Below, in pieces: positions 15,528-47,778 of a stretch of DNA of 64,000 bases (positions are counted from its first letter, which is position 1; each line of letters opens with the position of its first letter). The translations under genes and the position numbers were made by a program. Under the pieces are notes generated by a model that was given only the letters and a program-made list of their open reading frames with translations, ran no database searches and was not told the origin of the DNA. This DNA comes from an uncultured virus (IMG/VR IMGVR_UViG_3300037312_001617). Taxonomy: Duplodnaviria > Heunggongvirae > Uroviricota > Caudoviricetes. The stretch is from positions 1-64,000 of IMG/VR virus record IMGVR_UViG_3300037312_001617; one strand, given 5' to 3'.

Positions 15528-15555
15528 AAATAAAACAGCTCCCTTTTATAATTTT

Positions 15556-16614: not shown

Positions 16615-16625
16615 GGCTCCTCCTT

Positions 16626-17546: not shown

Positions 17547-17608
17547 TGGTTCCCTCCAAAGAGATTTAATTATTGGATGGGAAAGGTGAGACCTAGCGCT
17601 TTATCACC

Positions 17609-27283: not shown

Positions 27284-30200
27284 ATGCTGATACCTAACGG
27301 TTTGACGTTGCAGATAAAGAACCTTGAGCTCATCAATCGGGCGCTTGGGGATCAAGTACTCGAACTTAATGAAACGACGTATATAAACTTTCTGACGACC
27401 ATGCAATTGCGTAAGGCGATTGTCTTGCATAACAACAAAAAGATTGTCATTCTGACGCCTATCCCACAATCGGTATTGGACTTGTTGGAAGAACCGGAAA
27501 TTCCTTATGAAGATGACCCCGATCCGGCAATCAGTTTGTTTTATCGGGATGAATTTTTAAAATACAAAGCAGAAATTGAATCGGACTATGCACTAAAATC
27601 TTGGGTCGAGGAACGCATTGTAGAAGTGAACACGGGGGGAACGGTTGATATCTCCTCTAAGGCGGATAAGACATACGTGGACACGCAGCTTTCTAAGAAA
27701 ACGGATAAAACCTACGTGGACGCGGAACTCTCCAAGAAAACGGACAAAGGGTATGTGGATGGTGAAGTAGCGAAAAAGATTGATAAAGCCTATGTGGACA
27801 ATGCGCTCTCTGCGAAGACCGACAAGACTTACGTCGATGGCAAACTGGCAGAAAAATCTGATACGACCGTTGTCGAAGCCAAAGCAGATAAAACATATGT
27901 CGATAAGGAGTTAGAGCTAAAAGCCTCCAAAACGTATGTGGAGAACCGTATCATTGAAGTCAATTCAGGCGGCACAATTGATGTCTCCCATCTGGCTCAA
28001 AAAACTTATGTGGATACCGAATTAGAAAAAAAAGCCGATATCTCATATGTGGACAACCAAGTAGCATCTAAATCGATTTATTATGAAGGGGCGACTCCTC
28101 CAGAGGATACAAACCTGATTTGGGTCGATACCAGCGATGAGGACATCGATGAGGTTATGAAGACCGACTTGGGGAATGAAATCAAGAATACAGTCGCTGC
28201 TATTAAAACAAAGGTGGATGCGCTTGAATATGCCTTGGATTATGAACTCGATCCGGGTTATTTCAAAGGGATACGGCCTGGTTCCGATGGAACATCGACA
28301 AACACTGATCCCAACGCACCTGATTTAGGGGATGGCGCAGAAGGAACCGTTGGGCACATCCTCGTCAAAAGAGGGTATAAGGCGGATATTGAAAACCTGC
28401 AAGAAGGGGAATTTGGTTTTTGCATTGATACGGAGGAGCTGTACATTGGAAACAAAGGAAGGTTGCGTCTGATTGCGAAGGTTGGAGGAACCGGCGGCAG
28501 TGGCGGAAGCGGAAATGTGACCGCCGATTACGTGGAACTAATCTCGGAGAGCGGTAAAAAATACCGATTATCCGTCAATGATGCGGGAGAGCCGATGATT
28601 TTAAGCACAGATGCCGCGACCATTAATCTTCCTGACCCAGCAGACCCTCTGAGCGCCGGTCGATTCCAAGGTTTGTTTATAAATAAGGTGTATGGCGGCG
28701 GTGCGAGGAATACCAACGATACAGTAGTTTCTCATAGCTTTATAGAATTATACAATTCAACCGAAGCAACGATGAATCTCCGGGGTTTATCCCTTCAATA
28801 TGGGGAGTACTTACAGCCGTGGAAAGTACTCGAATTGGAAGGAGAAATTAAGCCATACAGTTCATTTCTTGTAAGGTGCGCACAACATTCCGATCCGTAC
28901 CGTCGCTCTGTTCGATGCAAAGTATTCGACTTTGACATGGGATGGGACATTCCTATTTCGGACAATGGATTTAAGGTGTATCTATGTGTAGGAACAACGG
29001 CGTCCACTTATGTTAACCCTGCTAATACCGATGGACAAAAGACAAAAGCCCCTGGCTATATCAATTTGTTCGGTGTGGGGGGCGAAGACATCACCCGCCC
29101 GATTGACGGATTTGAAAAAGGATTCCTGCAACTGGTGAATAAAAATCGGATGATTAAACGCAAATATTCCGAGGATGTTATCTTTGCTTTTTCTAATACC
29201 GGGGACAATTCATATGATATCGATTATGTGGATATGAGAACTGCAGACCTGAATATGTACTCACCTCGTTCCAGCAAATTCGGTCAATGGGATTATGCGT
29301 ATGACCAGATTCCTTTGGATACATCAAGCCCGAACGTAATCAGCCTTAGTTTTGGCTACGACGGCGATACGACTCGTACCTTCACATGGCAATCCCAGCC
29401 AACTGATAAGGGGTATCTCAAATATAAGAGAAAGGGCGATCCTGATTGGATCACCGTCCCTTCGACCAAAAAATTCATTGCTCACCCAGACCATGTGGAT
29501 GTGACAGTTCATGGAGTGATTGTGAAAAATTTGGTACCCGGTACCACTTATGTATACAAAGCAGGGTACGAAGGGCATTGGAGCGATGAATATGAACATA
29601 CGGTCATAGATGCGAGAAGTACAAGCCGCCCAATCAAAATGGTGTGGACGACCGACCAGCAAAGTTGGAATGGGATGGAGTACACAGCATGGGCAAAAGC
29701 CAATGCCTATATCGAGAAAAATGAAACCTATGATTTCATCTTGAATAGTGGCGACCGCACCCAAAACGCAAACCGCTCCTTTGAATGGCGTGGTTACTTC
29801 GAATCAGCGAAACAAAATTTGGCCACCCACGTGGAGATGTCGACGGTTGGAAACAATGACTTGGTAGATAAGCTGTACAGTTATGCGTATTCCTATTACT
29901 CAACGATTGAAAACAGCCCATATCCTTCTGTTTATAGCTGGAATTATGGATATACCCACTTTATTTGTTTAGACTCGAACATCCTGACGGAACCATTGGA
30001 TCCCACCAAGTTCATTCGAGGAACCGCTGAACAAATTGAATTCGTTAAAGCAGATATGGCGAAACCGGAAAATCAAAAACGATGGGTAGTTGCGTTCATG
30101 CATGAATCCAGCTATACCATTGTAAGGGCGAAGAAGTGTGAACCGTTTATTGCTGCTCTTTATGATGCGGGAGTGGATGTCGTATTATGCGGTCACCATC

Positions 30201-36500: not shown

Positions 36501-36714
36501 TACAGGAATCACTTCCATCGGAAGTCAATTGTTCTTCACTTGTACGGTGCTCAAGAACCTATCCTTCACGTTTGCAAGCTGTACCTCTCTTCGTGGAGCG
36601 GTTCCAGAATACTGGCTGGAGTCCTGCCCAGTCAAAGCGACTACGTTTGCTGCTTGTTACCGTGGCGACACCGCGGTCACCAACTATGCTACAATTCTTG
36701 CAGGATGGAAATAA
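30541..36714 (+). CDS. Giant protein: Ig-like + LamG + CotH-like kinase + LRR + BspA/DUF285-like repeats
   Basis: QGTSSKNYP.KNW, LKANFMDSS, GIYTWN, DNLGKN, FYDCDS, RFIYMDS (CotH); IRVYDRAL (LamG); LxxLDLS and MFxGCxxLTGxIP repeats. Confidence 0.82.
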   Translation: MSIKVFNKEKKEWEKKTSMLANNLKFEDVEGNFESENVGGAFKEVAESIKTIKNDVKYIYENGTIGGGSGGGGGGASTPVVTIDGATDYLVNSDETLDIYYYFTSPNPGNGEANLTWGSKIEKPTIPQGRNKWTVGPFPRGTHNLTITVLDKQGFFSTPVTVKVISGSLAITSPFSDSKDFTLNDDIAIPYTVLTEVNESVLLEYTFNGVTTTVGANIGDNVLNLGKLPFMGISSLRMKVKNTKYTSNELKYTLVATDSLNLFMSTSWDKPTIDVGKNIQLDYRISMKGQYSFNTDYYIDGVLLTTAKTFPGVNFWNVGTNMSKGPHTFKIVTTTVDGAHTAELTINLEVVTSGYEPYQPVRTGLIAEFDATGKINNSSTQAKWEDTSGKGVTCNLYNFNYFSNGWIDNTLVCSGKSYAEINLQPFLQGIKNGFTLDVLCKIKNVGDVEARVLSCKAPLTPFQGFEITPSSASIATKRSEMVSVQLQDDTWTKITYVVNRTDRLMTIYENGVISAVTYLQPNDINLENYQDEFTFDGKIYVGARKDPDGKMVNFSVSAVKNIRVYDRALTDADVLTNYIADFKDETEQTALRDLNSNDEGMPKITFTGKFDGMDENSERQAQISYEDPKNPNKRFVKDFCWVSWQGTSSKNYPVKNWTIKLMDGAVPTTNYAPKDEWRPESRWTLKANFMDSSNANNVGTNKFIYDFFKPYPYPNQVKDPTTRMNVDGFPVRLIMNGQDMGIYTWNIDRYANNNYGFETFNADGTISRHPNAVSYEVAVNGTSGAAAFMDDSWDSVRSEFKSRYNYRGEESAVTETVLVDGIGTKVLKTGSHNELQTLVTWVKNSTDDTFRSELEQHFSKRHLIDYYLIAYVLGMVDNLGKNMVLSTWGKNNEGNTIWYPSFYDCDSLFGLNNSGIIAFDAGLDMDKGDYNTSRSNLWVKLNRMFGNEISERYKELRQNRTIDGKDAPPIFSYENITSYVMDEVIDGIGQKYYNQDARIKYLNEAGLQWLYACNGSRKEFTERWLKERFIYMDSVFGFNQEVNNNAVIRSYKRGQLTLKVKTYSPQWIQIRFSDATNDIMRKYCDKDEWTEFSMYVDNGTDNNMTVYGCSNVMYLDGLKDLDVRSLNLGNARKLVELDISNSTRIQSISLGQNEYLQKVLVNGCTNLGYQVDDKTLDLSRCTTLKEIDASNTHIANVVFNQTGGVIEKLNLSNTDITAFKINGQEYLPVISLDGCLSLAELTITNCNGLQTVTMANTKLASVVINGCDNLTYIDVSNTKSLRALDLSGCPNLLTLKMAGVSNPSITDLDLTYSLKLQELDISSTNYISNVTFGQYTEGGVLKNYNALKIFRCDNSAIKSIKYGKASLAPTYMDLGGLSLTYLSFTGCSSVTDIRNINLVSTNEDPFNNCTNLTSIQGTVKLVGSTSRAFFGCGNLTVLPTLDLSEMSSMSETFLGCVKLTMASLTQILVNSGITSKFTYAWKAFGGCTGITGPLPSNLFSKCTGMGNLQEFFTGCTGINGTLPAGLMQPMTVLTNASYLFSGTSITGEVPMDFLRYNTKLTEVGRMFNGTKVTYAYLDNLFYYNTALNGAYGMFAGCTSLQLTPTENMFLMNKQLTSVGQFFNGCSGVVGQIPRGIFNNIGGSNSTSNNLNNVEWFFAGTSISGEIPAYVSDSDKGMLDKSPNLDSAQYLFQNCTGLTGSIPTDFLKNNKKLTKIAGLFYGCNGLTGVIPPNLLKGKTEVWTIAQLFRGCNKLSGNIPIGFLDDNTKLTDVQEMFYGCSGLTGEIPKRISTWSKAPSPLDPNILIDVENVTQYGLFDKCTNLVNMSAVFYQCKQLRSEIPPTLFMNASKVVNMSSMFYQCYYLYGPLDKDLFINCRAVQNMNNMFQDCVGLNNPELDVDRPYALPVELFQNCFNLTTVSYMFSMVTVGNPNPSRLNGALPTNLFSNCTKLTNIDGFMYGCGQITGALESDLFRMNTRLANAFYAFNGTGITSIGSQLFFTCTVLKNLSFTFASCTSLRGAVPEYWLESCPVKATTFAACYRGDTAVTNYATILAGWK

Positions 36715-36747
36715 AAAAGGAGATCCCTTCGGGGATCTCTTTTTTTA
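36715..36747 (+). terminator. Intrinsic terminator
   Basis: GAGATCCC-ttcg-GGGATCTC + T-run. Confidence 0.85.
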
Positions 36748-37009: not shown

Positions 37010-37414
37010 ATGGCCGGTTCAATGACAGATTACTTAGAAAATAAGATTCTCGAACATTCATTAGGAAAAACTTCTTTCTCTATGCCTGCTGGATGCTATA
37101 TCGCATTATTCACAGCGTCTCCAACAGATGCAGGCGGAGGTACAGAAGTATCGACTGCATCTACAGGTTATGCTCGTCAGCAAGTATTAGCTGCTGGTTG
37201 GGGTTCTGCTACAGGCGGATCCATCACAAATGCGGCTGACATCACGTTTCCGGTTGCGACAGCTTCTTGGAACACGATTACTGCCATTGGCATTTTTGAT
37301 GCGGTATCAGGTGGCAACATGCTTTGGTGGGGAACACTTGGGACTTCTAAAGCAATTGCTCAGAACGACCAGTTCAAAATTGCTGCTTCTAACTTAACAA
37401 TCACACTAGACTAA
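37010..37414 (+). CDS. Phage fibre/structural protein
   Basis: YLENKIL..YIALFTASP...EVS...YARQ...N...ITFP.AT..W..I...GIFDA..GGN family motif. Confidence 0.75.
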   Translation: MAGSMTDYLENKILEHSLGKTSFSMPAGCYIALFTASPTDAGGGTEVSTASTGYARQQVLAAGWGSATGGSITNAADITFPVATASWNTITAIGIFDAVSGGNMLWWGTLGTSKAIAQNDQFKIAASNLTITLD

Positions 37415-37481
37415 TAGAAATAAACGAAACAGCAATGGTCTTTATAGGCTGTTGCTGTTTTTATATGAGGAGGGACAGTAA

Positions 37482-37772
37482 ATGGCAGTAGGAGATGTAG
37501 TAACAGGACTTTCTTCCGTTGCGGCAAGTGGAACATTGGATATAAAGCCAGCTTCCGGAGTGGAGTGGGTGATTCATAATATTTATTATAACCAGGGGAC
37601 TGTTGAGTTTTATAAAACAGACGGGACGAATCTATTAAAATTTGATTCTGACTCTACTTTTGGAGGAAGGTTAGGCGTTGTGTTCCATTGTACGAATAGC
37701 CAATGGATTCAAATCAAGAATACGGCAGCGAGTGCAACCTTGATTGGATACGACGGGGTGCAAACGAAATGA
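37482..37772 (+). CDS. Small beta-sandwich structural protein
   Basis: GAGGAGG RBS; beta-rich composition. Confidence 0.65.
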   Translation: MAVGDVVTGLSSVAASGTLDIKPASGVEWVIHNIYYNQGTVEFYKTDGTNLLKFDSDSTFGGRLGVVFHCTNSQWIQIKNTAASATLIGYDGVQTK

Positions 37773-37808
37773 CAAGATTAATATCTATGCATAGTGAGGT
37801 GGTTGAAG

Positions 37809-38636
37809 GTGACTGTATTATGGGGTGACACAGGAAAAGCGGCCGTTGGACCATTAAAAACCTTTACTATTACACAGGCAACACCACGAGAAGATTTTTT
37901 TAACAATAATCCGTCGGCCACCTATTTCACTACAAACATGCCGACTGCTCAAACTGCAGGTATCGGGGCAACTTTTACAGTCCAGACGAGTGATTTCCCT
38001 ACCTTATCGCCTGTCTTTGACTGTAAGTACACCGCCTTTGTCGTAGTCAGTGGAAAAAACAACTCAGGAAACACTGTTACGATATCTCATCAGCCGTTTA
38101 AAAACGGAACCAGTGTTACTACGGCACAAACGCAAACCGGTGTAACAGCAGCGCAATTTTGGACCACTACCGTTTTTCGTTTTTATGATGTGCAAGTTGG
38201 GGATGTGTTGAATGTTCAAGTCTGGGCTAGTCTGGCCAATGTTTCCTTCGATTATTGCGCTTTGTTCATTTATCCGACTAGATTGCAGTTATCAAAAAAT
38301 GGAACGGCATTAAAAGATTTAACCTTATCTAATATTCAAAGCAGTACGTTGTTAACGACTGCAACCACTCCAGTGGACAGCAGCGCACTGAATGCCGGTG
38401 TTAATAATCAAGTTTACTACCTCTATCTCATGAACAATACAGGACAAATAGTAAGCACTAATGCAAGCGGAACGCTTACTATTCCGTTTTGGAATTTTGA
38501 TTCCAGTTATGGACTGTTAAGGGCAAACAACGGGGATACCACTTTAAGTCAATATTATGGAGCGCATTCTTCTAACCGTTATTATTCAAAACTAGCCCTT
38601 CCACAAACAGTCTCGTTCCGGGAAGTCTCGTTTTAA
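37809..38636 (+). CDS. Thr-rich structural protein
   Basis: GTG start after GAGGTGG; within structural cluster. Confidence 0.65.
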   Translation: MTVLWGDTGKAAVGPLKTFTITQATPREDFFNNNPSATYFTTNMPTAQTAGIGATFTVQTSDFPTLSPVFDCKYTAFVVVSGKNNSGNTVTISHQPFKNGTSVTTAQTQTGVTAAQFWTTTVFRFYDVQVGDVLNVQVWASLANVSFDYCALFIYPTRLQLSKNGTALKDLTLSNIQSSTLLTTATTPVDSSALNAGVNNQVYYLYLMNNTGQIVSTNASGTLTIPFWNFDSSYGLLRANNGDTTLSQYYGAHSSNRYYSKLALPQTVSFREVSF

Positions 38637-38669
38637 AAAAAATATAGGGCAAAAAGGTGGTGAAAGCTT

Positions 38670-41489
38670 ATGCCTATTACAGCTAGAGGTCTATGGACTT
38701 CGAATCGATTAGACGAGCGAGGGCGGTTTATATTCGGAAGTTTGGATGAACGCGGACAAACTGTAGCGGGAACTTCCACTGGAGCTGCGACTAATCCTGT
38801 TTTTGGGACAGTATCTCTTAATCCCAATCCTAGTGGATTGACTGTTACTGCCAGTGTTATTAAATTAACCCCTATGGCAAGCATTGATGGCGGAAGTTTT
38901 TTAAACACCCAGTTTACTTCTACTATTGATGGCGGTGCTTACCAAACAACGCAATTTAATTCCGTTAAGGATGGGGGCGTCTTTAGACTGATCGACGGAG
39001 GAATATTTAACAATTCCGTTACTACTAACACCATAGATGGAGGTGCCTTTACCGATACAACCGTAAGTAATACGAGGGATGGCGGTGCCTTTACATCTTC
39101 ACCTTCTCCTTCTAAAGATTCGGATATCAATGGAGGTGATTTTGCAGATCCGCAGGATTCCTCCGTCGATGCTGGTGGTTTCACGGATACTCAAAACTCT
39201 TCGATTGATGGCGGTGCCTTTACGGATATTTCTTCGGTTTCGATAGGGGCAAGTTCGACCGTTACTGCAAATGGAAGGTCGATTCTAACATCTTCGGTTA
39301 CGATTACTGATTTAAGTTCTCTTGTTGTTCAACCAAGTTCGGTTCCTTCTAGTGTTTCCATAAATGCTAATACGCAGGTAACCACTTATGGAGCTGCTAT
39401 CCAACAATCCTTTGTTTCCATAAGTGCTGGTACAACTATCACATCGATTGGAAACACGATACAAAATTCGTCTATATCTATTACGGCATCAGGTTCTCTC
39501 GTCTCTCAAGGAAGTTTGGTGGGAACAACAACCAATATTCTTGATGGAGGTTCTTTTAAAAATTATGTCAGCACGAACACCGTCGATGGCGGATCCTTTA
39601 CCAATACAACCGTAAGTAACACACGAGATGGCGGGGTCTTTACGTCTTTACCTTCTCCTTCTACGGGTTCCGACGTTGACGGTGGTGACTTTACTAGCCC
39701 TAACGACTCCTCAATTGATGGCGGTAATTTTACCAATCAAAATGATTCTGCTATCGATGGTGGTAATTTTGTTGATTACACCATTGTAATCAATGGCCGT
39801 TCTACTTTGATTGTATCGGGTTCTGTTTCTTCATTAGGGACGATAGATGGAGGGAACTTTGATGATCCGTCATACGATACCGTCATCGACGGTGGAAGTC
39901 CTGATGACACCGCATATGATTTTATCATTGATGGAGGAACGTTGGACTCTATTTTTATAAGTTCGCTTTCTTCGTTAAGTGCTAAGGGTGCCGGTGTTTT
40001 AACAGGACACGTTTCAATTTCCTCCGTTGGAAATGTCGTTGGAGGTATCGCTTCATCAACCCCTGTTTCCATTGAGATTGACCCTTTACCATCGAAGGTG
40101 TTCGTAACAGGAACTGTAATCAAAAAGGGAACCATTTCTTCTTCCGGAGCAGGTACCGTTGTGGTCAGCGCCGTGGGTGAATCGGTCGTTAAAACAGTCT
40201 TGTCAGGACCGATTGCGATAAATGCATCGAGTTCAACCCAGTCCTATGGAACGATTGATGGACAAGTATCCGCTTTAATTTTTGGAACTGGATTAGTCAT
40301 GGCGGGTGGAAACGTCATTTCGTCATCCGCTGTGATCACCAGCAATTCATCCAGTACGGTAACATTGTCCGCAATTTGTATGGCATTAGGTAATGTTTCA
40401 TCTTTCGGAACCGGAGTGGTGACAACAAACGGAAAAATCAAGGCGGTTTCAGATATCATTTCCATTACCTCAACAAGTGCAGCAACTCCATCGGGAATCT
40501 TGATCACAAAAGGTTCTGGCTCCACTTCCGGAATAAGTTCTGTCAGTGCTAATGGAAATGTAATTGCTGGTACCGGTGCTTCTATCGCGGCGTCAAGTGC
40601 GGTCACATCATCTTCTAGATATATTGCATCTGGAACGGCGTTGCCTGCGGGCAAGAGTAACCTTACGACTGAAGAAGGAACAGTATCTTTATCAGGTCCA
40701 CTCCCTATTCATGCGTCTAGTGTGTTAACAGCCTCCGCGTTCATAGTTGCTAAAAATACTGTTTCTTGTTCTGGCAAAGGAAATTTATCTGTTGTAGGCG
40801 ATAGGGTCGCGATCGCGCCTTCGTTCACTTTTAATGGAAAAAGTAACATAAGCATTTCTCAAATATTGACGAGACCGGCCAACGCTTCGGTTTCAAGCAA
40901 TGGCACCGTAACCGCCATTGGTAGAGTCATAAAGAGCGGAGCGATCGGCGTCAATGCTCAGGGAACGAGTACGAATGAAATCAATGGCTTTGTTATCTTA
41001 GGCGGAATCGTGAAGTTAACGGATACAAGTAGAGTGGATAGCATTCCAATCGCTGTCCGCCTAAGCGGTTCATCGTTGAAATCGGGGGCTTCTCTGACCC
41101 TATCGTTCAACGGGGTGAGACTGGCACAGGCTTCTTTTGCGGCAACGAGCTCGATTGCTGCCAACGATATCCGAATTCGTAGAGAAGGCTCAGCTGTTAA
41201 TGGTGTTACTTCTGTTGAGATAGAAGCGATCCGAAGGACACTTAATACGGTCTTATTCGGTGGACAAACGGGAGTGACCGTTAATGGATTTACGACAACC
41301 AGAAGCAAAATCCTATTAGACTCTAAATCTTCTTTACGGACCAACGGTGGAAAAACAACTCCGGTTGATGTGGTCATCTCTGCTAAAGGCGACGTAAACC
41401 TATTCATTGGCGACAAAATTATTGGGGAAGTGAATCTTGAAGGAAATGTCGCTGGCAGTGTGAGTTTTTCGGGGATTCTAAAAAATTAA
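38670..41489 (+). CDS. Ser/Thr/Gly-rich fibre/scaffold protein with about 18 (I/V)DGGxF motifs
   Basis: Two DGG clusters derived from a ~78-aa internal duplication, followed by long beta-strand repeats. Confidence 0.75.
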   Translation: MPITARGLWTSNRLDERGRFIFGSLDERGQTVAGTSTGAATNPVFGTVSLNPNPSGLTVTASVIKLTPMASIDGGSFLNTQFTSTIDGGAYQTTQFNSVKDGGVFRLIDGGIFNNSVTTNTIDGGAFTDTTVSNTRDGGAFTSSPSPSKDSDINGGDFADPQDSSVDAGGFTDTQNSSIDGGAFTDISSVSIGASSTVTANGRSILTSSVTITDLSSLVVQPSSVPSSVSINANTQVTTYGAAIQQSFVSISAGTTITSIGNTIQNSSISITASGSLVSQGSLVGTTTNILDGGSFKNYVSTNTVDGGSFTNTTVSNTRDGGVFTSLPSPSTGSDVDGGDFTSPNDSSIDGGNFTNQNDSAIDGGNFVDYTIVINGRSTLIVSGSVSSLGTIDGGNFDDPSYDTVIDGGSPDDTAYDFIIDGGTLDSIFISSLSSLSAKGAGVLTGHVSISSVGNVVGGIASSTPVSIEIDPLPSKVFVTGTVIKKGTISSSGAGTVVVSAVGESVVKTVLSGPIAINASSSTQSYGTIDGQVSALIFGTGLVMAGGNVISSSAVITSNSSSTVTLSAICMALGNVSSFGTGVVTTNGKIKAVSDIISITSTSAATPSGILITKGSGSTSGISSVSANGNVIAGTGASIAASSAVTSSSRYIASGTALPAGKSNLTTEEGTVSLSGPLPIHASSVLTASAFIVAKNTVSCSGKGNLSVVGDRVAIAPSFTFNGKSNISISQILTRPANASVSSNGTVTAIGRVIKSGAIGVNAQGTSTNEINGFVILGGIVKLTDTSRVDSIPIAVRLSGSSLKSGASLTLSFNGVRLAQASFAATSSIAANDIRIRREGSAVNGVTSVEIEAIRRTLNTVLFGGQTGVTVNGFTTTRSKILLDSKSSLRTNGGKTTPVDVVISAKGDVNLFIGDKIIGEVNLEGNVAGSVSFSGILKN

Positions 41490-41602
41490 TAGACGACCTT
41501 TCAAAGGTCGTTTTTTTTTACCATTATCAATCTTTAAACGTGATAGAATAATAATTAATTAGGACTTTCGACCTATAAGGAGGAGGTAAAGGAGGGTGCT
41601 TT

Positions 41603-41956
41603 ATGACCAAGAAGAACCAGAACTTCTCAATGGTAGCGGGCGATACCATGTTAATCAATATTGGTGTGACCGATTCTAACGGAACCCCCATTAACTTAAC
41701 AGGATGTTCCATTACATGGATTGTCAAAAAGACAGTCAAAGCCCCTATCGTTTTGGTGACTAAAACGACGCAGGATGATATTGCAATTCGGGATGTCAGA
41801 AAAGGACTGTTTGTCGTAAAACTCAACAGCCAAGATACGGCGGGATTTGATGGTCGAATGTATCACGAAGCCAAAGTAAAAGATGCTTTCGGCGATGTAG
41901 CCACGGTTGCCACTGGTTTGATCACCTTCGTTCCGAGCGGAGCGGTGGCAACATGA
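41603..41956 (+). CDS. BppU-N-like Ig adaptor protein
   Basis: GDT....VTDSNGTPINLTG...L.SQDT....YHEA.V motif. Confidence 0.7.
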   Translation: MTKKNQNFSMVAGDTMLINIGVTDSNGTPINLTGCSITWIVKKTVKAPIVLVTKTTQDDIAIRDVRKGLFVVKLNSQDTAGFDGRMYHEAKVKDAFGDVATVATGLITFVPSGAVAT

Positions 41957-41996
41957 CGAGTCGACAATTACAAGTTCAATAGATGGAGGGATTCTA

Positions 41997-43037
41997 ATGG
42001 ATAAAATTTTAGTGCGCAGAGGATTAAAAGGTGATTTGCCTGACCTTGATGAAGGAGAATTCGGATATTGCACAGACACTCGTGAAGTTTTTATTGGTAC
42101 TTCTACTGCTACGAATGTCCCGGTTGGAGGAGCATCAAATTTAGATGGTCTGACTGACGTCGATACGACGACAACTGCACCAACCAATGGTCAAGTGTTG
42201 AAATATGATTCTGCAACAAGCCTTTGGAAGCCGGGCACGGTGACAGGCGGTGGTGGAGGACCGACTTTAGTAGCTTCTTACACTCATACGAAGAACAAAG
42301 AGGTAGCTGTATCAGCTATTAACTATACAGATGGCACATTCTCTTCTACCGGTCATGGATTGGCTCTTAATGACACAGTGACCATTATTCCTAACAAGGA
42401 TATGGTTAATTCAGGTGTCAACGCTGGTAATGGTGGTAGCTATGTGGTTGGTTATTATCCTACGGGGATTTCCGCTAGGACTAAGTACTATGTAGTAAAT
42501 CCACAGACTGACTCATTCCAATTATCGGCTACTTCTGGTGGAGCGGCTATTGTTCCAACGAACCCGAACTCAACCGTGGACGTAACTAAGTGGCATTTTG
42601 AAAGACAGGTGGATTCTACTATCGACTTTGGAACACTTCCAGCGGCGGGTTCGAAATTCCGAATAGTGCTTAGTGGAAAGGTGTTACGAAGCAACACAGG
42701 TCAATTAAACGTATATGCGGGTTCATTGCAATTCCCATATACCAATTTACTTGTGTCCACCAATACTATCATGTCAGGATTCGGAAATGGCGTTTGGTCT
42801 TTAGCTGGTGACATGCACACCTACCGTGAATATGACCTTAATTCTGAGGGGTACTATTACATTCGACAAAGAGGAGTAGACTACGCTACCAATACTACTT
42901 CCGCATACACGGCTACTGTTCGTGATAATACAGGTATTTGTCAAGATTACACATTCTTCAATAAACAAATAACAAAAATAACGATCATTAACATTGATGC
43001 GGCGAATGGTTTAACTGTCCAACTTTATAGCATGTAA
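41997..43037 (+). CDS. Mtd_N-like headed tail-fibre protein
   Basis: KILVRRG..LDEGEFGYCTDTREVFIG; LTDVD...PTNGQVLKYD...W fibre motif; HGL...YYV...FQLSAT domain. Confidence 0.78.
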   Translation: MDKILVRRGLKGDLPDLDEGEFGYCTDTREVFIGTSTATNVPVGGASNLDGLTDVDTTTTAPTNGQVLKYDSATSLWKPGTVTGGGGGPTLVASYTHTKNKEVAVSAINYTDGTFSSTGHGLALNDTVTIIPNKDMVNSGVNAGNGGSYVVGYYPTGISARTKYYVVNPQTDSFQLSATSGGAAIVPTNPNSTVDVTKWHFERQVDSTIDFGTLPAAGSKFRIVLSGKVLRSNTGQLNVYAGSLQFPYTNLLVSTNTIMSGFGNGVWSLAGDMHTYREYDLNSEGYYYIRQRGVDYATNTTSAYTATVRDNTGICQDYTFFNKQITKITIINIDAANGLTVQLYSM

Positions 43038-43084
43038 TTTATGAAGCCAATAGGAGACTGTTGGCTTTTAAAGGAGGGTAAAAA

Positions 43085-45052
43085 ATGGCACCCAAAATTC
43101 AAATCAGAAGAGGGTTAAGTTCTAGTTTGCCGATCAATTTAGCAGAAGGTGAATTTGGCTTTACTACAGATTCAAAGGAACTTTATATTGGTTCAACCGG
43201 AGGGAATGTTAAGTTAGCGAAATATTCGGATTTAAGCTCGATTTCTGGTGGAAGTGTTATTGAGACTTATGAAACGGAAGCGGTAGGAGAATTATTCTAT
43301 CCGCCTGGCAACTACAACGCATGGTGTCCGAGCAATTTACAGTGGGATAAAACAAGAGGGGTCTTTGCGGTTCTGATTAATGCTGCTGATGCCCATGTAT
43401 TCACTAAGATAGACCAATACTTCTGTACAATTAATCCTGACACGCTTATTTCCACGAAACCTGTTCTTGTTAGTCCGAAAGATACTAGTGGGAATGCTGT
43501 TGCATGGGACACTCAAACATCTTCTAATAATTTTATGATACTAAATGATGGAACATATGTATTTTATAGAAGATTAGGTGGAGTTTATCAAAGAATAACC
43601 TCGACAGACGGTGGTGTCACTTGGGTTAATCAAGGACCTATTACTTTTACACCAGGTGGTATTATCACTACTTCCTCCAATATTTGGGGCATCCAAAAAC
43701 TATCTAGTGGAAGATTAATTATTGGATGGGGAGCTCAAGCGGAGGTTCGAGGAAAAATTTCATGGTCAGATAATGGGATAGATTGGAATGTTGTTAATAT
43801 CGGTTGGAATACAATAAGTCCAACACCTACAGCAGCAGAGCCTCATATTATTGAAGTGAAACCTGGTCAGTTAGTAAGTTTGGCGAGGATGACAAGCGCG
43901 GGTGCTACGGGTGGATTATCCCCTGAACCTGCCTTAATATCTTTCTCTAATGATAATGGTGCCTCTTGGACACCTTATGTAAAATCTTCATCAATTACTG
44001 ACATGAATGCATCTGGGGCTACAGCGTTTGTTCATGATGGTATGGTTGAAGTGTTCGTAGCTTCAAGATTCTATGGTAGTACAAGCAATGTAAACACAGG
44101 TGAAACTGGTGCGATCTATCATTATACCGCAACATTAGATAATGCATTAGCGGACAAATTCACCTTAAAAAATGTGAGTGTATTTGCAAATGCGGTAGAT
44201 AGCGTGGACTTCCATTCTCCTTGTGTGGCCATTGACAGTAAAAAAAGACTTCTTCTTATGTATATGGATCAAACGCATTATACCGTTACAACGGCAGAAG
44301 TGAACTATTTATTTGTAAGAGGTGGAAGGACATCTGTACCTAAATTAAATGCTGATGGAAAAAATGCGCCTCTATTTGGATATAGCGGGAAATATATTGA
44401 ATCACTAGTTTCAAATTTAAAAACAGAAATTGCTACTTTGCAAAACAAAGTATCCTTAATTAGCGGAGTAACAAATCCTGTTCCTGCTCCCAAAGGTACT
44501 TTAATTTGGACTAAAAAATATAATACTCAGCTTGAAAACAAATATGTATATGATTCTAGTAATGAATTTTCAGGTAGAGTGCAATGGGCATCACAAGCAA
44601 CTCCTTCTTACAATAATATTGAAACAGATGCAAATGGTATTAAATATCATAGTACGGGTACATCCGGAACAATTCTTATTCCTGTAACAAAGCCAAATTT
44701 TTCTATTCAATATACAGGCACAATTGGAAATGAATCGATATGGTCACCGACTGCAGCTGGTATTATCAATGGAGTAGCGTATGGAGCTATCTTTGTGGCA
44801 AAATATGGTGTTACTAAAAATATATATCATGAATTTAGATTTGAAAATTGGAATGGCAAAATGAAAGTATTCATCGATAATATTGAAATGCCTACTGTCG
44901 TAAGTACAAACTTTGATTCTAATTCATCTAATATGTACAGTAATACTTGGAGCCAAGCCCAAACTTTAGGTTATGTTGCAGGTAATACTTATGCGGTTGC
45001 CAGCATATCGTCTGGAAAAATCTATGACCTCAAATTTGGTGAATGGGATTAA
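43085..45052 (+). CDS. Mtd_N-like headed sialidase/BNR beta-propeller protein
   Basis: KIQIRRG..LAEGEFGFTTDSKELYIG; Asp-boxes STDGGVTW, SDNGIDW, SNDNGASW. Confidence 0.8.
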   Translation: MAPKIQIRRGLSSSLPINLAEGEFGFTTDSKELYIGSTGGNVKLAKYSDLSSISGGSVIETYETEAVGELFYPPGNYNAWCPSNLQWDKTRGVFAVLINAADAHVFTKIDQYFCTINPDTLISTKPVLVSPKDTSGNAVAWDTQTSSNNFMILNDGTYVFYRRLGGVYQRITSTDGGVTWVNQGPITFTPGGIITTSSNIWGIQKLSSGRLIIGWGAQAEVRGKISWSDNGIDWNVVNIGWNTISPTPTAAEPHIIEVKPGQLVSLARMTSAGATGGLSPEPALISFSNDNGASWTPYVKSSSITDMNASGATAFVHDGMVEVFVASRFYGSTSNVNTGETGAIYHYTATLDNALADKFTLKNVSVFANAVDSVDFHSPCVAIDSKKRLLLMYMDQTHYTVTTAEVNYLFVRGGRTSVPKLNADGKNAPLFGYSGKYIESLVSNLKTEIATLQNKVSLISGVTNPVPAPKGTLIWTKKYNTQLENKYVYDSSNEFSGRVQWASQATPSYNNIETDANGIKYHSTGTSGTILIPVTKPNFSIQYTGTIGNESIWSPTAAGIINGVAYGAIFVAKYGVTKNIYHEFRFENWNGKMKVFIDNIEMPTVVSTNFDSNSSNMYSNTWSQAQTLGYVAGNTYAVASISSGKIYDLKFGEWD

Positions 45053-45156
45053 TTTTTAGAAAGCCAGCATCACTGCTGGCTTTTTTATTTTCAGCAATCT
45101 TTCTGAAAGTTTGATAGAATTCTTTATAGGTATAAAGTCCTATAAGGAGGGGAAAT

Positions 45157-47574
45157 ATGACTCAAAAAATACAATTTAAGCGAGGGCAACAAAACGAACT
45201 ACCCACTTTAGCAATTGGAGAACCTGCCTTTACTTTAGATACGAAAAAAATGTTTGTCGGATCCTCTGGTGGAAATATAGAATTGGCAAAAAGTTCGGTT
45301 GTCCACAATATCTCTTATGTTGTGGACCTAGATCGATGGGGGATTACGCAAGGTTCCTTTGGAAAACCTCCTTATACAACAGACGAATGGGCGGTAGCTT
45401 ATAACAATATTCAAGGATTGAATGCCGCTTTGGTGTTTGCGAAGGATAATGGCTATAATCGAGTGATTCTTCCAAAAGGAACATATAGTTTCTGTTACAC
45501 AAACCCAACTGGCGGACCAAGACCAGTCGATATGAAGTCAATCCCCATTCAGTTATTCAGCAATCAAACATTAGACTTAAATGGTTCAACCTTTGAAGTT
45601 ATGTATGATTCCATTAACAAGAACCCATACGATTTATCACCAGATACCACAGAGCCATGGAGGTTATCAGGTAACCTTATTAGTTTGGATGAATGTATTA
45701 ATTCTCATGTAACCAACGGAAAGATCATTGGAGACATCCCCAACAGAAGTTTCTCTGATGCAGGAACTGGTTTTGAGTCGGAAAAGGGGATGGAGCAAAC
45801 AAGGGGAATTGGAATTAATAATGGAGCGAAAAACTGCTCTGTTTCCTTTATTGACATCTCTATGTTTATGGGTGACGCAATCCGTATCGGAAACACCCCT
45901 ACTCAAACAACTAACTGGAACGTCAGTGGATGGGGTAACAACACATGTAATCCTGGTTACATCAATAATGATGGGACCATTAATGCCTCTACGAGTGGAG
46001 CTTATCTCTCTCCAGAATATACCATTATTCAAGGAGAACATAAGGTTATTCAGTTGCGTACGAATGGAGGATACACACGTATCCCTGCTATCAAAGGTTT
46101 TTTCTTCGAGTTTGTATTCTTGGATAGCAGTAAAGTAGTGGTAGCAAGAAAGAAAGCTACTTACTTACAATCGGTTACTGTCCCTTATAATGCTGCATAT
46201 CTACGTATGCAGTTCACAGGACAAGATGTTGGTCTAACTACTTTTAAACCCGATTATGCGATTACTAAAGTGCAAGCAGCAAATATCCATATCCATCACT
46301 GCGATATCCACGATAACCACCGTGGAGGAATAAGTGGTGGAGCTGACGATACGCTGATCGAATGGAACCGTATTTATCATAATGGTTTAGATTCCAGTAT
46401 CGGAGTGCCTTTATTCCCTGATACAACTCGTTACTGTATCAACTTTGAGGATAGTTATTGTAATAAGGTAACGATCCGTAACAATCTGATGTTTTCCGGA
46501 TTCAATGGATTGCTATTGTCAGTCTACAATATCAATGTTACTGGGAACATTATGTACAATTTCTCTTCTGGCGTTCTTATATATAACAATGCTAGAACGG
46601 TTGTAAGAGATAATTTGTTCATTGATGCGGCTTCCATTGGATTGATGGATAATGTAGGTTTCCAACGAAGGGAAATTGACTTCGAACATAACTGGGTATT
46701 AGGCGGAAGTATGAGTGTAGACACTACCTCATATCCTTCAACGAGTGTTCAGATTAGAAATAACCGTTTGACGCCGGACTCCATTTCTCTTACAGGAGCC
46801 GTTTTATTCACAGGAAATAAATTAGACTCAACGACTGGGGATAAGAATACAGCGACTCAGTGGACTATTCGAGCTACAAGATGCACGAACAACGATTTTA
46901 ACAATTGTGCTGTACAGATTGATAAATATGATGATTCTAGCGTGTTCTCGGATAACCGCTTCAACTCTGTTGTGATCCGTCCGAGCAAATGGACGAATGA
47001 GATTGATTGGAGACGTACAAGATTCTATAACAGCTTTATCGATTGGTTGTATTTCTATGACAAGACAAAGAATGTCACAACCACTTTTACGGACTGTACG
47101 TTCCAAGATACCACATTCGATACAGGTCATGGATTCATCAACGATGCGACGAACGGAAACCTTACCGTATCAGTGCGATTCAAACGTTGTGAATTTAACA
47201 TGACCAACGCGATTGCATCTACTGTCATGATTACCTTAAATGATAACGTGGCAAGCTCATCTTACCCAGCCGGAGTAGCGCAACGTCAATACAAAGCTGT
47301 ATTCAAAGACTGTGAATTCAACAATACTTCGGATTCTCCTGTCCGTTATATTGCGAGTACGTCGAATAGTGGCTCTCAACCTAAGAACATGCTTTTAGAG
47401 CGATGCTCAATTGATACCGCTAGATTCAAGCTGTTCGGAGATTATGCGAACAACAGTGCAACCATGAGGGATACCGATTTCTTAAATGGAAGCACTCCGA
47501 TTACCATGACGAATGCTGCAGTGACTACAGTTAAACAAGTTGAGTCTAGCTGGAACGGTTCGACTTGGATATAG
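45157..47574 (+). CDS. Mtd_N-like headed beta-helix depolymerase
   Basis: KIQFKRG..LAIGEPAFTLDTKKMFVG; LPKGTY, TLDLNGS, HDNHRGGIS beta-helix. Confidence 0.8.
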   Translation: MTQKIQFKRGQQNELPTLAIGEPAFTLDTKKMFVGSSGGNIELAKSSVVHNISYVVDLDRWGITQGSFGKPPYTTDEWAVAYNNIQGLNAALVFAKDNGYNRVILPKGTYSFCYTNPTGGPRPVDMKSIPIQLFSNQTLDLNGSTFEVMYDSINKNPYDLSPDTTEPWRLSGNLISLDECINSHVTNGKIIGDIPNRSFSDAGTGFESEKGMEQTRGIGINNGAKNCSVSFIDISMFMGDAIRIGNTPTQTTNWNVSGWGNNTCNPGYINNDGTINASTSGAYLSPEYTIIQGEHKVIQLRTNGGYTRIPAIKGFFFEFVFLDSSKVVVARKKATYLQSVTVPYNAAYLRMQFTGQDVGLTTFKPDYAITKVQAANIHIHHCDIHDNHRGGISGGADDTLIEWNRIYHNGLDSSIGVPLFPDTTRYCINFEDSYCNKVTIRNNLMFSGFNGLLLSVYNINVTGNIMYNFSSGVLIYNNARTVVRDNLFIDAASIGLMDNVGFQRREIDFEHNWVLGGSMSVDTTSYPSTSVQIRNNRLTPDSISLTGAVLFTGNKLDSTTGDKNTATQWTIRATRCTNNDFNNCAVQIDKYDDSSVFSDNRFNSVVIRPSKWTNEIDWRRTRFYNSFIDWLYFYDKTKNVTTTFTDCTFQDTTFDTGHGFINDATNGNLTVSVRFKRCEFNMTNAIASTVMITLNDNVASSSYPAGVAQRQYKAVFKDCEFNNTSDSPVRYIASTSNSGSQPKNMLLERCSIDTARFKLFGDYANNSATMRDTDFLNGSTPITMTNAAVTTVKQVESSWNGSTWI

Positions 47575-47778
47575 GAACAAAAAAACGGAAAAAGGACTCC
47601 TTGTGTTTCTACAAGGAGTCCTTTTTGTTGAGCTGTTACATCTAGGGTACTCCAATTATAGCATGAATTCGAGATAAAAAGTATTGAAAGATTAAGATTT
47701 GATTAAAATTGTAAATACAAGGTGACAACTGATACAATAGTCCTAGTTTATTTTTATTAAAATGGAGGTTATCAATCT

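What the first reader, a model, noticed from the sequence alone, without database searches (positions are those of the whole stretch)
37010..47574. Candidate plug-and-socket fibre system: DGG-motif scaffold plus Mtd_N-headed interchangeable enzymes
Seen: the 939-aa protein (38670-41489) has about 18 copies of (I/V/R)DGGx(F/Y), mostly 11-16 aa apart, in two clusters from a ~78-aa duplication still visible at DNA level (~39050 vs ~39600). It is followed by an Ig-like adaptor and three genes sharing only an N-terminal module, KI..(R/K)RG...L..GE..(F/Y)..D....(F/Y).G, fused to unrelated cargoes: fibre, BNR/sialidase propeller, beta-helix lyase. A fourth copy lies inside the 27284 phosphatase protein, just after a DGG-like ELDPGYF. 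Known: this module resembles the N-terminal attachment domain of Bordetella phage Mtd and streptococcal phage hyaluronidases. Inference: DGGxF peptides are docking sites for these trimeric heads, giving a branched, cellulosome-like multi-enzyme fibre on a virion, spore or conjugation surface. No capsid or tail-tube genes are in the window.
Basis: partly seen in the sequence, partly recalled or inferred. Interest (0 to 1): 0.88.

Follow-up and report, generated by a model that had tools for sequence, protein, structure and literature searches.

The report
Phage scaffold docking several enzyme fibres
An uncultured phage-like element, probably of Bacillus-type hosts, encodes a long protein with six triplets of a short Asp-Gly-Gly-x-Phe peptide, and each triplet is predicted to grip the three-part head of a neighbouring enzyme-tipped fibre, so one protein may carry a bouquet of different surface-degrading enzymes.

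Summary
The 939-aa protein (38670-41489) has 16 exact DGG plus 2 variant motifs (shuffles: mean 0.8, max 5). Three downstream genes and the 27284 protein carry Pfam Mtd_N above cut-off.

New here: the 18 motifs form six triplets, 13-14 aa apart within a triplet. Motif-only pattern scans of viral, genome and metagenome collections found eight families whose proteins end in one such triplet. In five of the seven that could be judged, the next gene starts with a head recognised by an HMM built only from this record's five heads. Fifteen of its 20 hits in 1.41 Mb begin within 30 nt of such a stop codon; the other five lie one gene further on.

One complex prediction (three heads plus one triplet) scored ipSAE 0.70 against 0.00 for the best control, with one motif per head subunit.

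Most likely the protein is a multivalent scaffold, each triplet acting as a pseudo-threefold plug for one trimeric fibre. Binding, occupancy and specificity are untested. Its operon also encodes a Gp80-type fibre subunit, so the Ser/Thr-rich remainder may be a "rope" as in podophages GP4 and A1002. I found no printed description of the plug.

The parts
37010..37414 (+). 134-aa Gp80-family protein: subunit of the fibre dimers of 'chain-like' fibres. First gene of the operon that ends with the scaffold.
   Evidence: PF23140 Gp80 at 3.5e-46, 157 bits against a 27-bit cut-off. PDB 8jou_a at 2.1e-13 over aa 5-130. phrog_240.
37482..37772 (+). 96-aa protein of unknown role
   Evidence: No Pfam or PHROG hit and only chance PDB hits. 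ESM Atlas: nearest clusters are viral hypothetical proteins of 94-95 aa, score 0.97.
37794..38636 (+). 280-aa protein with a jelly-roll beta-sandwich (aa 25-165); role unknown
   Evidence: 8 homologues, all unnamed. AF2 with a 9-row alignment: pLDDT 70. Best fold matches are generic (Foldseek E 3.7e-3; VIA Z 6.0, rmsd 2.9, 108 aligned).
38670..41489 (+). 939-aa scaffold protein P0001
   Evidence: ORF and translation. GGTGGTG ribosome-binding site 8 nt before the ATG. No Pfam or PHROG hit. Five hits at E <= 0.001 among 1.84 billion representatives: three to its N-terminus, one to the repeat region and one weak hit to an unrelated repetitive protein.
38670..38795 (+). N-terminal module, aa 1-42 (MPIxxxGLWTS..LDERG..FGSLDERGQ): presumed anchor of the scaffold itself
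   Evidence: Shared with P0006, P0007 and P0010, which carry unrelated C-terminal parts (E 2.4e-8, 1.4e-5, 8.8e-4).
38883..38984 (+). Triplet T1 (motifs at D73, D87, D101)
   Evidence: spacing 14, 14
38991..39092 (+). Triplet T2 (D109, D123, D137)
   Evidence: spacing 14, 14. Related to T4 by the duplication.
39126..39221 (+). Triplet T3 (N154, D167 as DAG, D180)
   Evidence: spacing 13, 13. Related to T5 by the duplication.
39540..39641 (+). Triplet T4 (D292, D306, D320): the triplet used in the complex prediction
39675..39770 (+). Triplet T5 (D337, D350, D363)
   Evidence: spacing 13, 13
39843..39944 (+). Triplet T6 (D393, D407, D421). The second and third motifs are degenerate (DGGSP, DGGTL).
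39957..41486 (+). Ser/Thr/Gly/Val-rich C-terminal 510 aa with a repeat of about 20 aa (also in aa 185-290): candidate 'rope' for Gp80-type dimers, or a beta-solenoid shaft
   Evidence: Hydrophobic autocorrelation peaks at lags 20 and 40. AF2 on the single sequence predicts strands at low confidence. Untested.
41491..41513 (+). Terminator-like hairpin closing the operon 37010-41489
   Evidence: 10-pair stem followed by a T run
41603..41956 (+). 117-aa protein, weakly like BppU_N
   Evidence: PF10651 at 21.8 bits, below its 23.1 cut-off; phrog_1084 at 1.1e-12
41997..43037 (+). 346-aa fibre protein with an Mtd_N head (aa 1-43)
   Evidence: PF18454 at 28.5 bits; tail-fibre PHROGs
43085..45052 (+). 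655-aa protein: Mtd_N head (aa 1-45) plus a BNR/sialidase-like part. Its head was used in the complex prediction.
   Evidence: PF18454 at 31.2 bits; BNR_2 at 29.1 bits, below cut-off
45058..45085 (+). Terminator-like hairpin
45157..47574 (+). 805-aa protein: Mtd_N head plus a tailspike-like body
   Evidence: PF18454 at 27.7 bits; phrog_2234 tail spike at 2.5e-35
47589..47626 (.). 16-pair hairpin closing the cluster. The scan lists it on the minus strand; its printed sequence also ends in a T run on the plus strand.
28364..28453 (+). Internal Mtd_N domain (aa 361-390) of the 1081-aa phosphatase-bearing protein 27284-30529

Best explanation
P0001 is most likely a multivalent docking scaffold of a phage virion.

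The functional unit is a triplet of (I/V)DGGxF motifs 13-14 residues apart in one chain. The triplet is disordered on its own. It wraps once around the N-terminal face of a trimeric Mtd_N-type head, each motif pairing with the first strand (K-I-Q-I-R-R-G) of one subunit. One polypeptide can thereby hold a threefold-symmetric fibre: a symmetry adaptor.

P0001 carries six such triplets. It could therefore mount up to six trimers drawn from the Mtd_N-headed proteins of the record: a fibre, a BNR/sialidase-like protein, a tailspike-like protein, and possibly the 102798 protein. P0001 itself would be anchored through its own N-terminal module.

Shown: the motifs, their triplet grouping, the heads, and the genomic rule that a triplet end is followed by a head. 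Inferred: binding (one in-silico job), occupancy of all six sites, simultaneous display of different enzymes, and the site of attachment.
For: 1. Triplet grouping. Motif positions are 73/87/101, 109/123/137, 154/167/180, 292/306/320, 337/350/363 and 393/407/421. Gaps are 13-14 aa inside a triplet and 8, 17, 112, 17 and 30 aa between triplets.

2. The same unit elsewhere. Four pattern scans that asked only for three DGGxF motifs gave 19 frames ending in a triplet, in 8 families.
- The carriers include a neck/tail terminator (PF23961, 3.7e-15) and a tail completion protein (PF11367, 6e-7). These are ring proteins as I recall them, not trimers.
- Another carrier is a 72-aa protein of Bacillaceae chromosomes.

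3. Adjacency.
- An HMM built only from this record's five heads gave 20 hits in 184 loci (1,408,172 bp; own copies left out).
- Fifteen start -1 to +24 nt after the stop codon of a triplet-ending frame. The other five are the next gene of one family, after a 92-aa protein that itself has a head and ends in a DCG/NCG triplet.
- The chance fraction of qualifying positions is 2.8e-4.
- By family, 5 of 7 that could be judged have the head.
- Pfam Mtd_N is above cut-off in the next gene of L010, L019, L021 (twice) and L102.
- The start codon overlaps the stop codon by one base in L010, L019, L022 and L102.

4. Genome-wide. In each of three Bacillaceae genomes of about 5 Mb, the only Mtd_N match is the gene after the triplet gene.

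5. Complex prediction. Input: three copies of the 43085 head (aa 1-60) plus triplet T4 (aa 284-330).
- ipSAE 0.71, 0.70, 0.70; best of 3 controls 0.00.
- The tool's mark was reached by 116 of 157 solved complexes and 2 of 215 mismatched pairs. The tool says these counts hold only roughly here, because my own alignments were used and the job has several chains.
- The runs agree in at least 92% of contacts, and partner pLDDT is at least 71.
- Head residues 4-9 of copies 1 and 2, and 6-8 of copy 3, touch the 2nd, 3rd and 1st DGG respectively.
- With the head replaced by an unrelated protein, the triplet's pLDDT falls to 32.

6. No likeness to a solved complex by sequence. Profiles of the heads (0 hits at E <= 1) and of the triplets (chance hits only) find nothing in the PDB, so a pass 'from memory' is unlikely.
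Against: - Only one head and one triplet were folded together.
- In P0001 the triplets are internal and the head genes are not directly adjacent: they start 507, 1595 and 3667 nt after its stop. This differs from the C-terminal cases that carry the statistics.
- Two C-terminal-triplet families (L022/L028, L016) have no head by the independent HMM or by Pfam. Their next genes only look head-like in alignment A1 (L022) or by eye (L016).
- Among tail-tip-like proteins with an internal triplet, several loci show no head nearby (L043, L047, L057, L107, L199). Pfam Mtd_N found none in 6 of 8 viral records with triplets; of the other two, one hit was clear and one weak.
- In the reverse test, only 3 of 9 Mtd_N-bearing genomes of one Bacillaceae-type family have a triplet gene upstream.
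- T1 and T2 are only 8 aa apart, and T3 and T6 have degenerate motifs, so six occupied sites are doubtful.
- P0001 has almost no relatives, so conservation of its triplets cannot be judged.
Confidence: 0.58

Rival explanations
1. P0001 is, or is also, the 'rope' of a chain-like fibre. Its extended Ser/Thr-rich segments, or the DGG region itself, would give serial beta-augmentation sites for dimers of the Gp80-type protein encoded by the first gene of the same operon, as in podophages GP4, VP1 and A1002. Read as an additional function this is compatible with the best explanation. Read as the only function, the DGG motifs would serve Gp80 dimers, not Mtd_N heads.
For: - 37010-37414 is a clear Gp80-family member (157 bits; PDB 8jou_a at 2.1e-13).
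- It lies in one terminator-bounded unit with P0001 (hairpins at 36720-36739 and 41491-41513).
- PMC13730344 (sections 9 and 11 and passages read) describes 11 fibre dimers docked by augmented beta-sheets on an extended fibre-dock region in A1002, and five dimers on a separately encoded rope protein in GP4.
- P0001 aa 185-290 and 430-939 show a hydrophobic period of about 20 residues. By my arithmetic from the A1002 domain limits, about 24 residues serve each dimer there.
Against: - No sequence similarity of P0001 to any PDB chain or Pfam family.
- The rope proteins of GP4 and A1002 could not be compared.
- A 20-residue period also fits a beta-solenoid.
- None of the other triplet loci encodes a Gp80 relative: phmmer found only this element's own copies. 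The DGG motif therefore travels with heads, not with Gp80.
Confidence: 0.3
2. The DGGxF arrays are a self-contained structural element, for example a trimeric beta-spiral or solenoid shaft or a small pseudo-threefold domain. Their position before head-bearing genes would reflect only ordinary fibre gene order.
For: - A regular 13-17 aa period with a Gly-Gly turn resembles, as I recall them, fibre shaft repeats.
- Arrays of 8 and 13 motifs exist: L006 at the N-terminus, L016 at the C-terminus with 16-18 aa spacing.
- Several proteins with internal triplets have no detectable head nearby.
Against: - Exactly three motifs recur at the very C-terminus of unrelated, non-fibre carriers: neck terminator, tail completion protein, a 72-aa protein.
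- 15 of 20 head hits begin within 30 nt of such ends, against a chance fraction of 2.8e-4.
- The triplet is predicted unstructured without the head: pLDDT 32 against 71-72. P0001 alone shows no secondary structure across the DGG clusters, but that model has pLDDT 33 and is weak evidence.
Confidence: 0.12
3. Triplet-bearing proteins are assembly templates or chaperones, not permanent joints. Three tandem motifs would gather three nascent head strands to nucleate trimerisation of the downstream fibre and then leave, so P0001 would be an assembly platform absent from the particle.
For: - Stop and start codons overlap by one base between the triplet gene and the head gene.
- A tiny 72-aa triplet protein pairs with a single head-bearing enzyme in non-phage chromosomal context.
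- The predicted contacts are with the very first residues of the head.
Against: Several carriers are virion structural proteins (tail terminator, tail completion, tail-tip-like proteins), where a permanent joint is the simpler reading. P0001 has its own N-terminal module shared with other proteins and a 500-aa body, which is unlike a chaperone.
Confidence: 0.1

Closest known systems
Chain-like fibres on a 'rope' protein in podophages GP4 (PDB 8JOU), VP1 and A1002 (PMC13730344; abstract, sections 9 and 11 and passages read)
   Same: One extended polypeptide offers many serial docking sites that bind fibre subunits by strand addition. A Gp80-family gene opens the operon here.
   Different: There the cargo is one or two kinds of small Gp80-type dimers on a podovirus nozzle. 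Here the sites best supported are DGGxF triplets predicted to hold trimeric Mtd_N heads with large, different enzyme bodies. The record has a myovirus-like baseplate gene. No sequence likeness of P0001 to a rope protein could be shown.
Mtd (major tropism determinant) of Bordetella phage BPP-1 and Pfam Mtd_N (PF18454)
   Same: The N-terminal heads of the three cargo genes pass the Pfam cut-off. Mtd is, as I recall, a trimer mounted on the end of a tail fibre through this end.
   Different: No other Mtd domain, C-type-lectin fold or diversity-generating retroelement was seen or sought. What Mtd_N binds in BPP-1 is not described in anything I read (listings only).
Phage T4 distal half-fibre, gp36-gp37 joint
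   Same: gp36 ends in ...QDFGYY, and gp37 starts MATLKQIQFKR...AEGELA, head-like by eye.
   Different: One motif per chain of a trimer, not three in one chain. Pfam Mtd_N (E <= 1) and both of my head HMMs (E <= 10) do not hit gp37, so the link is by eye only.
Branched multi-tailspike adsorption complexes of Klebsiella phages RaK2 and phiK64-1 (PMC10253068: search listing and start of abstract only) and of CBA120 and G7C (recalled)
   Same: Several different depolymerase-type receptor-binding proteins are mounted on one virion through N-terminal anchor domains.
   Different: As I recall them, branching there runs through folded adaptor domains on the tailspikes themselves, not through a repetitive peptide scaffold.
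   Same: One scaffold, many interchangeable enzymes that share a small docking module.
   Different: No cohesin or dockerin family hit in the cluster. Here the docking element on the scaffold is a short linear peptide triplet, and the partner is a trimer.

Membership tests
Pfam Mtd_N (PF18454) | Match to the 37-position model above the 26.3-bit gathering score | tested here: met
   28.5, 31.2 and 27.7 bits for 41997, 43085 and 45157; 27.1 bits at aa 361-390 of 27284; 46.2 bits at 102798
Mtd-type receptor-binding protein (BPP-1 Mtd) | Further Mtd domains (beta-sandwich, C-type-lectin-like variable region) and a diversity-generating retroelement | tested here: not met
   No Pfam family other than Mtd_N, BNR_2 (below cut-off) and PHROG tail families in the three proteins. 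A retroelement was not searched for.
Gp80 fibre-dimer family (PF23140) | Full-length match above cut-off and likeness to the solved GP4 subunit | tested here: met
   157.1 bits against a 27-bit cut-off, aa 4-132 on profile 1-128; 8jou_a at 2.1e-13
Chain-like fibre (rope plus Gp80 dimers) of GP4, VP1 and A1002 | An extended rope polypeptide with repeated dimer-docking segments | tested here: inconclusive
   P0001 has a repeat of about 20 aa in aa 185-290 and 430-939, but no similarity to any PDB chain or Pfam family. Binding not tested.
Chain-like fibre (rope plus Gp80 dimers) of GP4, VP1 and A1002 | Podovirus tail with nozzle and adaptor as the attachment site | not tested
   The record shows a baseplate wedge (phrog_6) and a tail lysin, which suggests a long-tailed or contractile tail. 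Many of its structural ORFs have no family hit.
DGGxF-triplet / head joint (unnamed; defined here) | Three D-G-G-x-aromatic motifs 11-18 aa apart in one chain | tested here: met
   Six such triplets in P0001. They align with 13 triplets from other loci; the two Gly of motifs 1 and 3, the Asp of motifs 2 and 3 and the second Gly of motif 2 are invariant, and the remaining Asp and Gly are 90% or more conserved.
DGGxF-triplet / head joint (unnamed; defined here) | Triplet at the C-terminus, with the head-bearing gene immediately downstream | tested here: not met
   In P0001 the triplets are internal (the last lies 514 aa from the end), and the heads start 507-3667 nt after its stop. The tail-tip-like carriers (L013, L025, L033, L105, L129) are the nearer parallel.
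T4 gp36-gp37 type joint | Detectable homology of the head to the gp37 N-terminus | tested here: not met
   No Pfam Mtd_N hit at E <= 1 and no hit of either head HMM at E <= 10. The likeness is by eye only.
BppU_N (PF10651) | Score above the 23.1-bit cut-off | tested here: inconclusive
   21.8 bits, E 1.6e-4
Sialidase/BNR propeller (PF13088 BNR_2) | Score above the 31.4-bit cut-off | tested here: inconclusive
   29.1 bits, aa 168-321 of the 655-aa protein
Cohesin-dockerin (cellulosome) | Cohesin or dockerin domains | tested here: not met
   No such Pfam hit in the 14 proteins of 24.8-50 kb

The most novel reading that the evidence does not exclude
Tandem triplets of a five-residue peptide would be a general, sequence-readable symmetry adaptor of tailed phages. 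Three DGGxF motifs in one chain imitate the three C-terminal tails of a trimer, so any carrier could mount a trimeric Mtd_N-headed fibre or enzyme: a hexameric neck ring, a tail tip, a 72-aa adaptor or a long scaffold.

P0001 would be the extreme case. It would be a six-socket board that also serves as a rope for Gp80 dimers. That would give a composite appendage displaying several different carbohydrate- or phosphate-active enzymes, and a natural chassis for swapping phage enzymes by exchanging a 45-residue head.
Probability: 0.3. Interest if true: 0.85.

Novelty: new variant of a known kind. Interest (0 to 1): 0.68.

Why it matters
If the triplet-head joint is real, fibre and enzyme architecture of many uncultured phages could be read from sequence: which protein carries which receptor-binding protein, and in what copy number.

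It would also explain how threefold fibres are mounted on sixfold or monomeric carriers. And it offers a small, portable connector (a 40-residue triplet and a 45-residue head) for engineering phages or particles that display chosen enzymes.

This window would be the clearest case of amplification of that joint into a multi-enzyme scaffold. It sits beside a second kind of multivalent docking (Gp80 and rope) that was described only in the papers on GP4, VP1 and A1002 cited in PMC13730344.

Tried and rejected
- Word-index homologue search with P0001: no hit at near lengths; none for aa 1-70 among shorter proteins.
- ESM Atlas with P0001: best score 0.87, unnamed viral clusters, below the level that means anything.
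- AF2 on P0001 alone: pLDDT 33, unusable, so no fold search was made with it.
- PDB sequence searches with P0001, the 96-aa and the 280-aa proteins: chance hits only.
- Megablast of the region against phage and plasmid collections: no match.
- The search for related loci with P0001 returned only a second contig with the identical gene. With P0007 it returned nothing. With P0008 it returned two relatives that share the Fn3 part but lack the DGG tail.
- Most pattern-scan matches in bacterial genomes and metagenomes are exact tandem repeats of low complexity (such as PTVFPGDGGLFPS or DRPPRRDGGSFG), or lie in frames with stops (L008, L011, L015). I set these aside as unrelated. In the loci scored, 27 of 72 carrier frames were classed 'tandem' and 35 loci had no qualifying frame. 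A 639-aa frame with 22 motifs in Ureibacillus (L063) is such a repeat, not a P0001 relative.
- Fold searches for the 280-aa protein gave only generic jelly-roll matches. The top Foldseek rows were Bacillus exosporium ExsFA/BxpB at E 3.7e-3 with TM 0.22/0.36. The best VIA row had Z 6.0. I draw no function from them.
- Literature: searches for Mtd_N / tail fiber, BPP-1 / Mtd / cryo-EM / tail fiber, DGGxF / DGG motif / DGG repeat(s) (5 papers, none on phages among the 4 listed) and major tropism determinant / N-terminal domain / tail fiber / docking / trimer gave no description of this joint. The GP4 tail paper itself is not in the library.
- The A-1(L) neck-fibre paper (PMC10966104, section 8 read) describes head-to-tail bead chains but no DGG or Mtd_N joint.

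Full report
Context. The window is the first 64 kb of a 116,043-bp IMG/VR record, with completeness estimated at 29%.
- The record mixes three kinds of genes. It has Gram-positive conjugation-type genes: TcpC, TcpE, an AAA_10 ATPase, Replic_Relax and an NlpC/P60 lysin at 7997-20515 on the minus strand. It has partition genes, Alp7A-like at 21174 and ParA-like at 65005.
- It also has a structural module at about 71-102 kb with a major head protein (phrog_2522), a baseplate wedge protein (phrog_6) and a tail-associated lysin.
- The closest relatives of the cargo heads found anywhere are chromosomal genes of Bacillus, Gottfriedia and Rossellomorea. A Bacillaceae-type host is therefore likely but not shown.

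Observation. The 939-aa ORF 38670-41489 has 16 exact DGG and two variants (INGGDF, VDAGGF). Shuffles of its own composition give 0.8 on average and never more than 5. No other ORF of the record has the motif (89 ORFs).
- The duplication is visible in DNA: 146 of 219 nt and 47 of 73 aa are identical between aa 118-190 and 301-373.
- Pfam Mtd_N is above its cut-off in the three downstream genes and inside the 27284 protein, and in a fifth gene at 102798.
- The cargo labels are softer. BNR_2 is just under its cut-off. The 805-aa protein is a tailspike by PHROG only. The 'Ig-like adaptor' is a sub-threshold BppU_N match.

Anatomy found here. The 18 motifs are not evenly spread. They form six triplets with 13-14 aa between motifs, and 8, 17, 112, 17 and 30 aa between triplets.
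- T2 and T4, and T3 and T5, are the duplicated pairs. T6 is degenerate in two motifs.
- The first 42 residues are a separate module shared with three otherwise different proteins.
- The stretches aa 185-290 and 430-939 are Ser/Thr/Gly/Val-rich with a hydrophobic period of about 20 residues.
- Terminator-like hairpins divide the cluster into three units: 37010-41489 (the Gp80-like protein, two small proteins and P0001), 41603-45052, and 45157-47574.

Relatives. P0001 is nearly an orphan: there were 5 hits at E <= 0.001 among 1.84 billion representatives. One of them, P0008, ends in six DGGxF motifs after Fn3 domains.

To find the motif independently of any head, I scanned for three back-translated DGGxF motifs 7-11 codons apart.
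- IMG/VR gave 12 and 19 loci.
- One genome per species gave 75 loci.
- Metagenomes gave 96 stretches, of which 80 loci came with DNA.
- Many matches are plain low-complexity tandem repeats and were set aside.

The remainder fall into recurrent classes.
- Proteins that end in exactly one triplet: a neck/tail terminator (L010; PF23961); a tail completion protein (L019/L029; PF11367); a 183-aa protein (L021 group); a 960-aa protein (L022/L028); a 72-aa protein of Bacillaceae chromosomes (L059, L097, L102, L137); a short frame (L153, L155, L183); and L034, which is cut off by the contig end.
- L016: a 908-aa protein with a head-like N-terminus and 13 C-terminal motifs.
- Large proteins encoded after the tape-measure gene, with one internal triplet at about aa 210-290.

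Adjacency test. An HMM built only from the five heads of this record was run over every reading frame of 184 loci (1.41 Mb; own copies L005 and L017 left out).
- It gave 20 hits at E <= 1e-3.
- Fifteen begin -1 to +24 nt after the stop codon of a triplet-ending frame on the same strand.
- The other five are the gene after next in the L021 group. There the intervening 92-aa protein has its own head and ends in a DCG/NCG-type triplet.
- There were no hits anywhere else. By chance 0.03% of positions qualify.
- By family, 5 of 7 that could be judged have the head. L022/L028 and L016 do not by this HMM; L022's next gene aligns with the heads, and L016's only looks head-like by eye.
- Pfam confirms Mtd_N above cut-off in L010, L019, L021 (both genes) and L102.
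- A broader HMM from alignment A1, which includes some of these heads and is therefore independent only for the genome and metagenome loci, gave 6 of 6 hits in the genome loci within 200 nt downstream of a triplet carrier (one marginal, E 0.36). In the metagenome loci it gave 8 of 8 hits within 24 nt. These include internal-triplet carriers L105, L129/L167 and L136/L188.
- In three Bacillaceae genomes the sole Mtd_N match of the whole genome is the gene after the triplet gene.

Results against the reading.
- Pfam found no Mtd_N in 6 of 8 viral records with triplets; the other two gave one clear and one weak match.
- Several internal-triplet loci have no head by any model (L043, L047, L057, L107, L199).
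- Only 3 of 9 Mtd_N-bearing genomes among 104 of one family have a triplet gene upstream.

Structure prediction. P0001 alone folds to nothing usable (pLDDT 33).
- ipSAE was 0.71, 0.70 and 0.70, against 0.00 for the best of three controls.
- The tool's mark was reached by 116 of 157 solved complexes and 2 of 215 mismatched pairs. The tool says these counts hold only roughly here, because my own alignments and several chains were used.
- The runs agree in at least 92% of contacts, and partner pLDDT is at least 71.
- The geometry is the informative part. Residues 1-11 of each head copy (2-11 in the third) are in the interface, and each copy's first strand touches a different DGG of the triplet.
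- The triplet's confidence drops to 32 when the head is replaced.
- Neither a head profile nor a triplet profile finds any PDB chain, so likeness to a solved complex is not evident by sequence.
- This supports binding. It does not show it.

A second layer. The first gene of the operon is a Gp80-family protein matching the fibre-dimer chain of PDB 8JOU.
- According to PMC13730344, such dimers dock serially, by beta-sheet augmentation, on an extended 'rope': five on a separate rope protein in GP4, and eleven on the fibre-dock region of gp39 in A1002.
- P0001's periodic Ser/Thr-rich parts are the obvious candidate rope here, but nothing tests this.
- The other triplet loci have no Gp80 relative, so the DGG motif itself goes with heads rather than with Gp80.

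Verdict. Multivalent, mixed loading of P0001 remains inference.
- Compared with what is in print, this is a new variant of known designs: N-terminal anchor domains of receptor-binding proteins, branched tailspike complexes, and rope-type docking.
- I found no printed description of the DGGxF-head joint.
- Earlier unchecked notes of this scan describe the single-motif form repeatedly, and one describes an amplified triplet array. They were used as leads only.
- Their proposed T4 gp36-gp37 parallel is visible by eye, but it is not recovered by Pfam or by my HMMs.

Noticed in passing
window 7997-20515 (-), 21174-22316 (+), 60678-62948 (+); record 65005-65871 and 71-102 kb: One 'viral' record combines Tcp-type conjugation genes, a relaxase-like gene, Alp7A- and ParA-type partition genes and an FtsK/SpoIIIE ATPase with a tailed-phage structural module. 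It may be a conjugative phage-plasmid, a plasmid carrying a prophage, or a mis-joined contig.
   Followed up: partly
window 27284-30529 (+) and record 77543-77863 (+): The N-terminus (aa 8-65) of the 1081-aa protein is 34% identical (E 9e-7) to a 106-aa protein encoded just after the major head gene. The large protein combines a tail-fibre-like region, an internal Mtd_N, a lamin-tail domain and a purple acid phosphatase. It may be mounted on the head or neck through that domain.
   Followed up: no
window 30541-36714 (+): A 2057-aa protein with Ig-like, laminin-G, CotH-kinase, leucine-rich-repeat and DUF285 parts. It matches phrog_9915 over its full length (1769 bits), so this odd architecture recurs in phages.
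   Followed up: no
L021 (also L024, L026, L027, L030) about 5510-8543: A three-step chain. A 183-aa protein ends in a CDGGTYL triplet. The next, 92-aa, protein has an Mtd_N head and ends in an IDCG/FDCG/INCG triplet. The third, 761-aa, protein has an Mtd_N head. The 92-aa protein looks like a pure adaptor link.
   Followed up: partly
L102 3881-5850 (Rossellomorea chromosome); also L059, L097, L137: A conserved two-gene module sits between a cold-shock gene and other cellular genes, not in a recognisable prophage. It consists of a 72-aa protein ending in a DGGxF triplet (TTG start, GGAGG site) and a 583-aa Mtd_N-headed protein, with start overlapping stop by one base. It holds the only Mtd_N in each genome.
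   Followed up: partly
L016 7608-10334 (-): A 908-aa protein has both a head-like N-terminus and 13 C-terminal DGGxF motifs at 16-18 aa spacing. It could in principle bind copies of itself.
   Followed up: no
L007, L009, L012, L013, L014, L020, L025, L033, L105, L129 and others: A family of large proteins is encoded after the tape-measure gene and a small gene in Firmicute-type phages. Each carries exactly one internal DGGxF triplet at aa 210-290. In several the next gene starts MAIQ(M/V)RRG...GE(W/Y)A, a head variant that Pfam Mtd_N does not detect.
   Followed up: partly
window 1491-2051 (+), 4353-5123 (+): A dCMP/cytidine deaminase and a K+ channel with an RCK/TrkA domain lie at the start of the window.
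   Followed up: no
window 22396-24246 (+), 24834-26873 (-): Two further pectate-lyase/tailspike-like proteins lie just upstream of the cluster. Neither has an Mtd_N head, so they must be mounted by another route.
   Followed up: no
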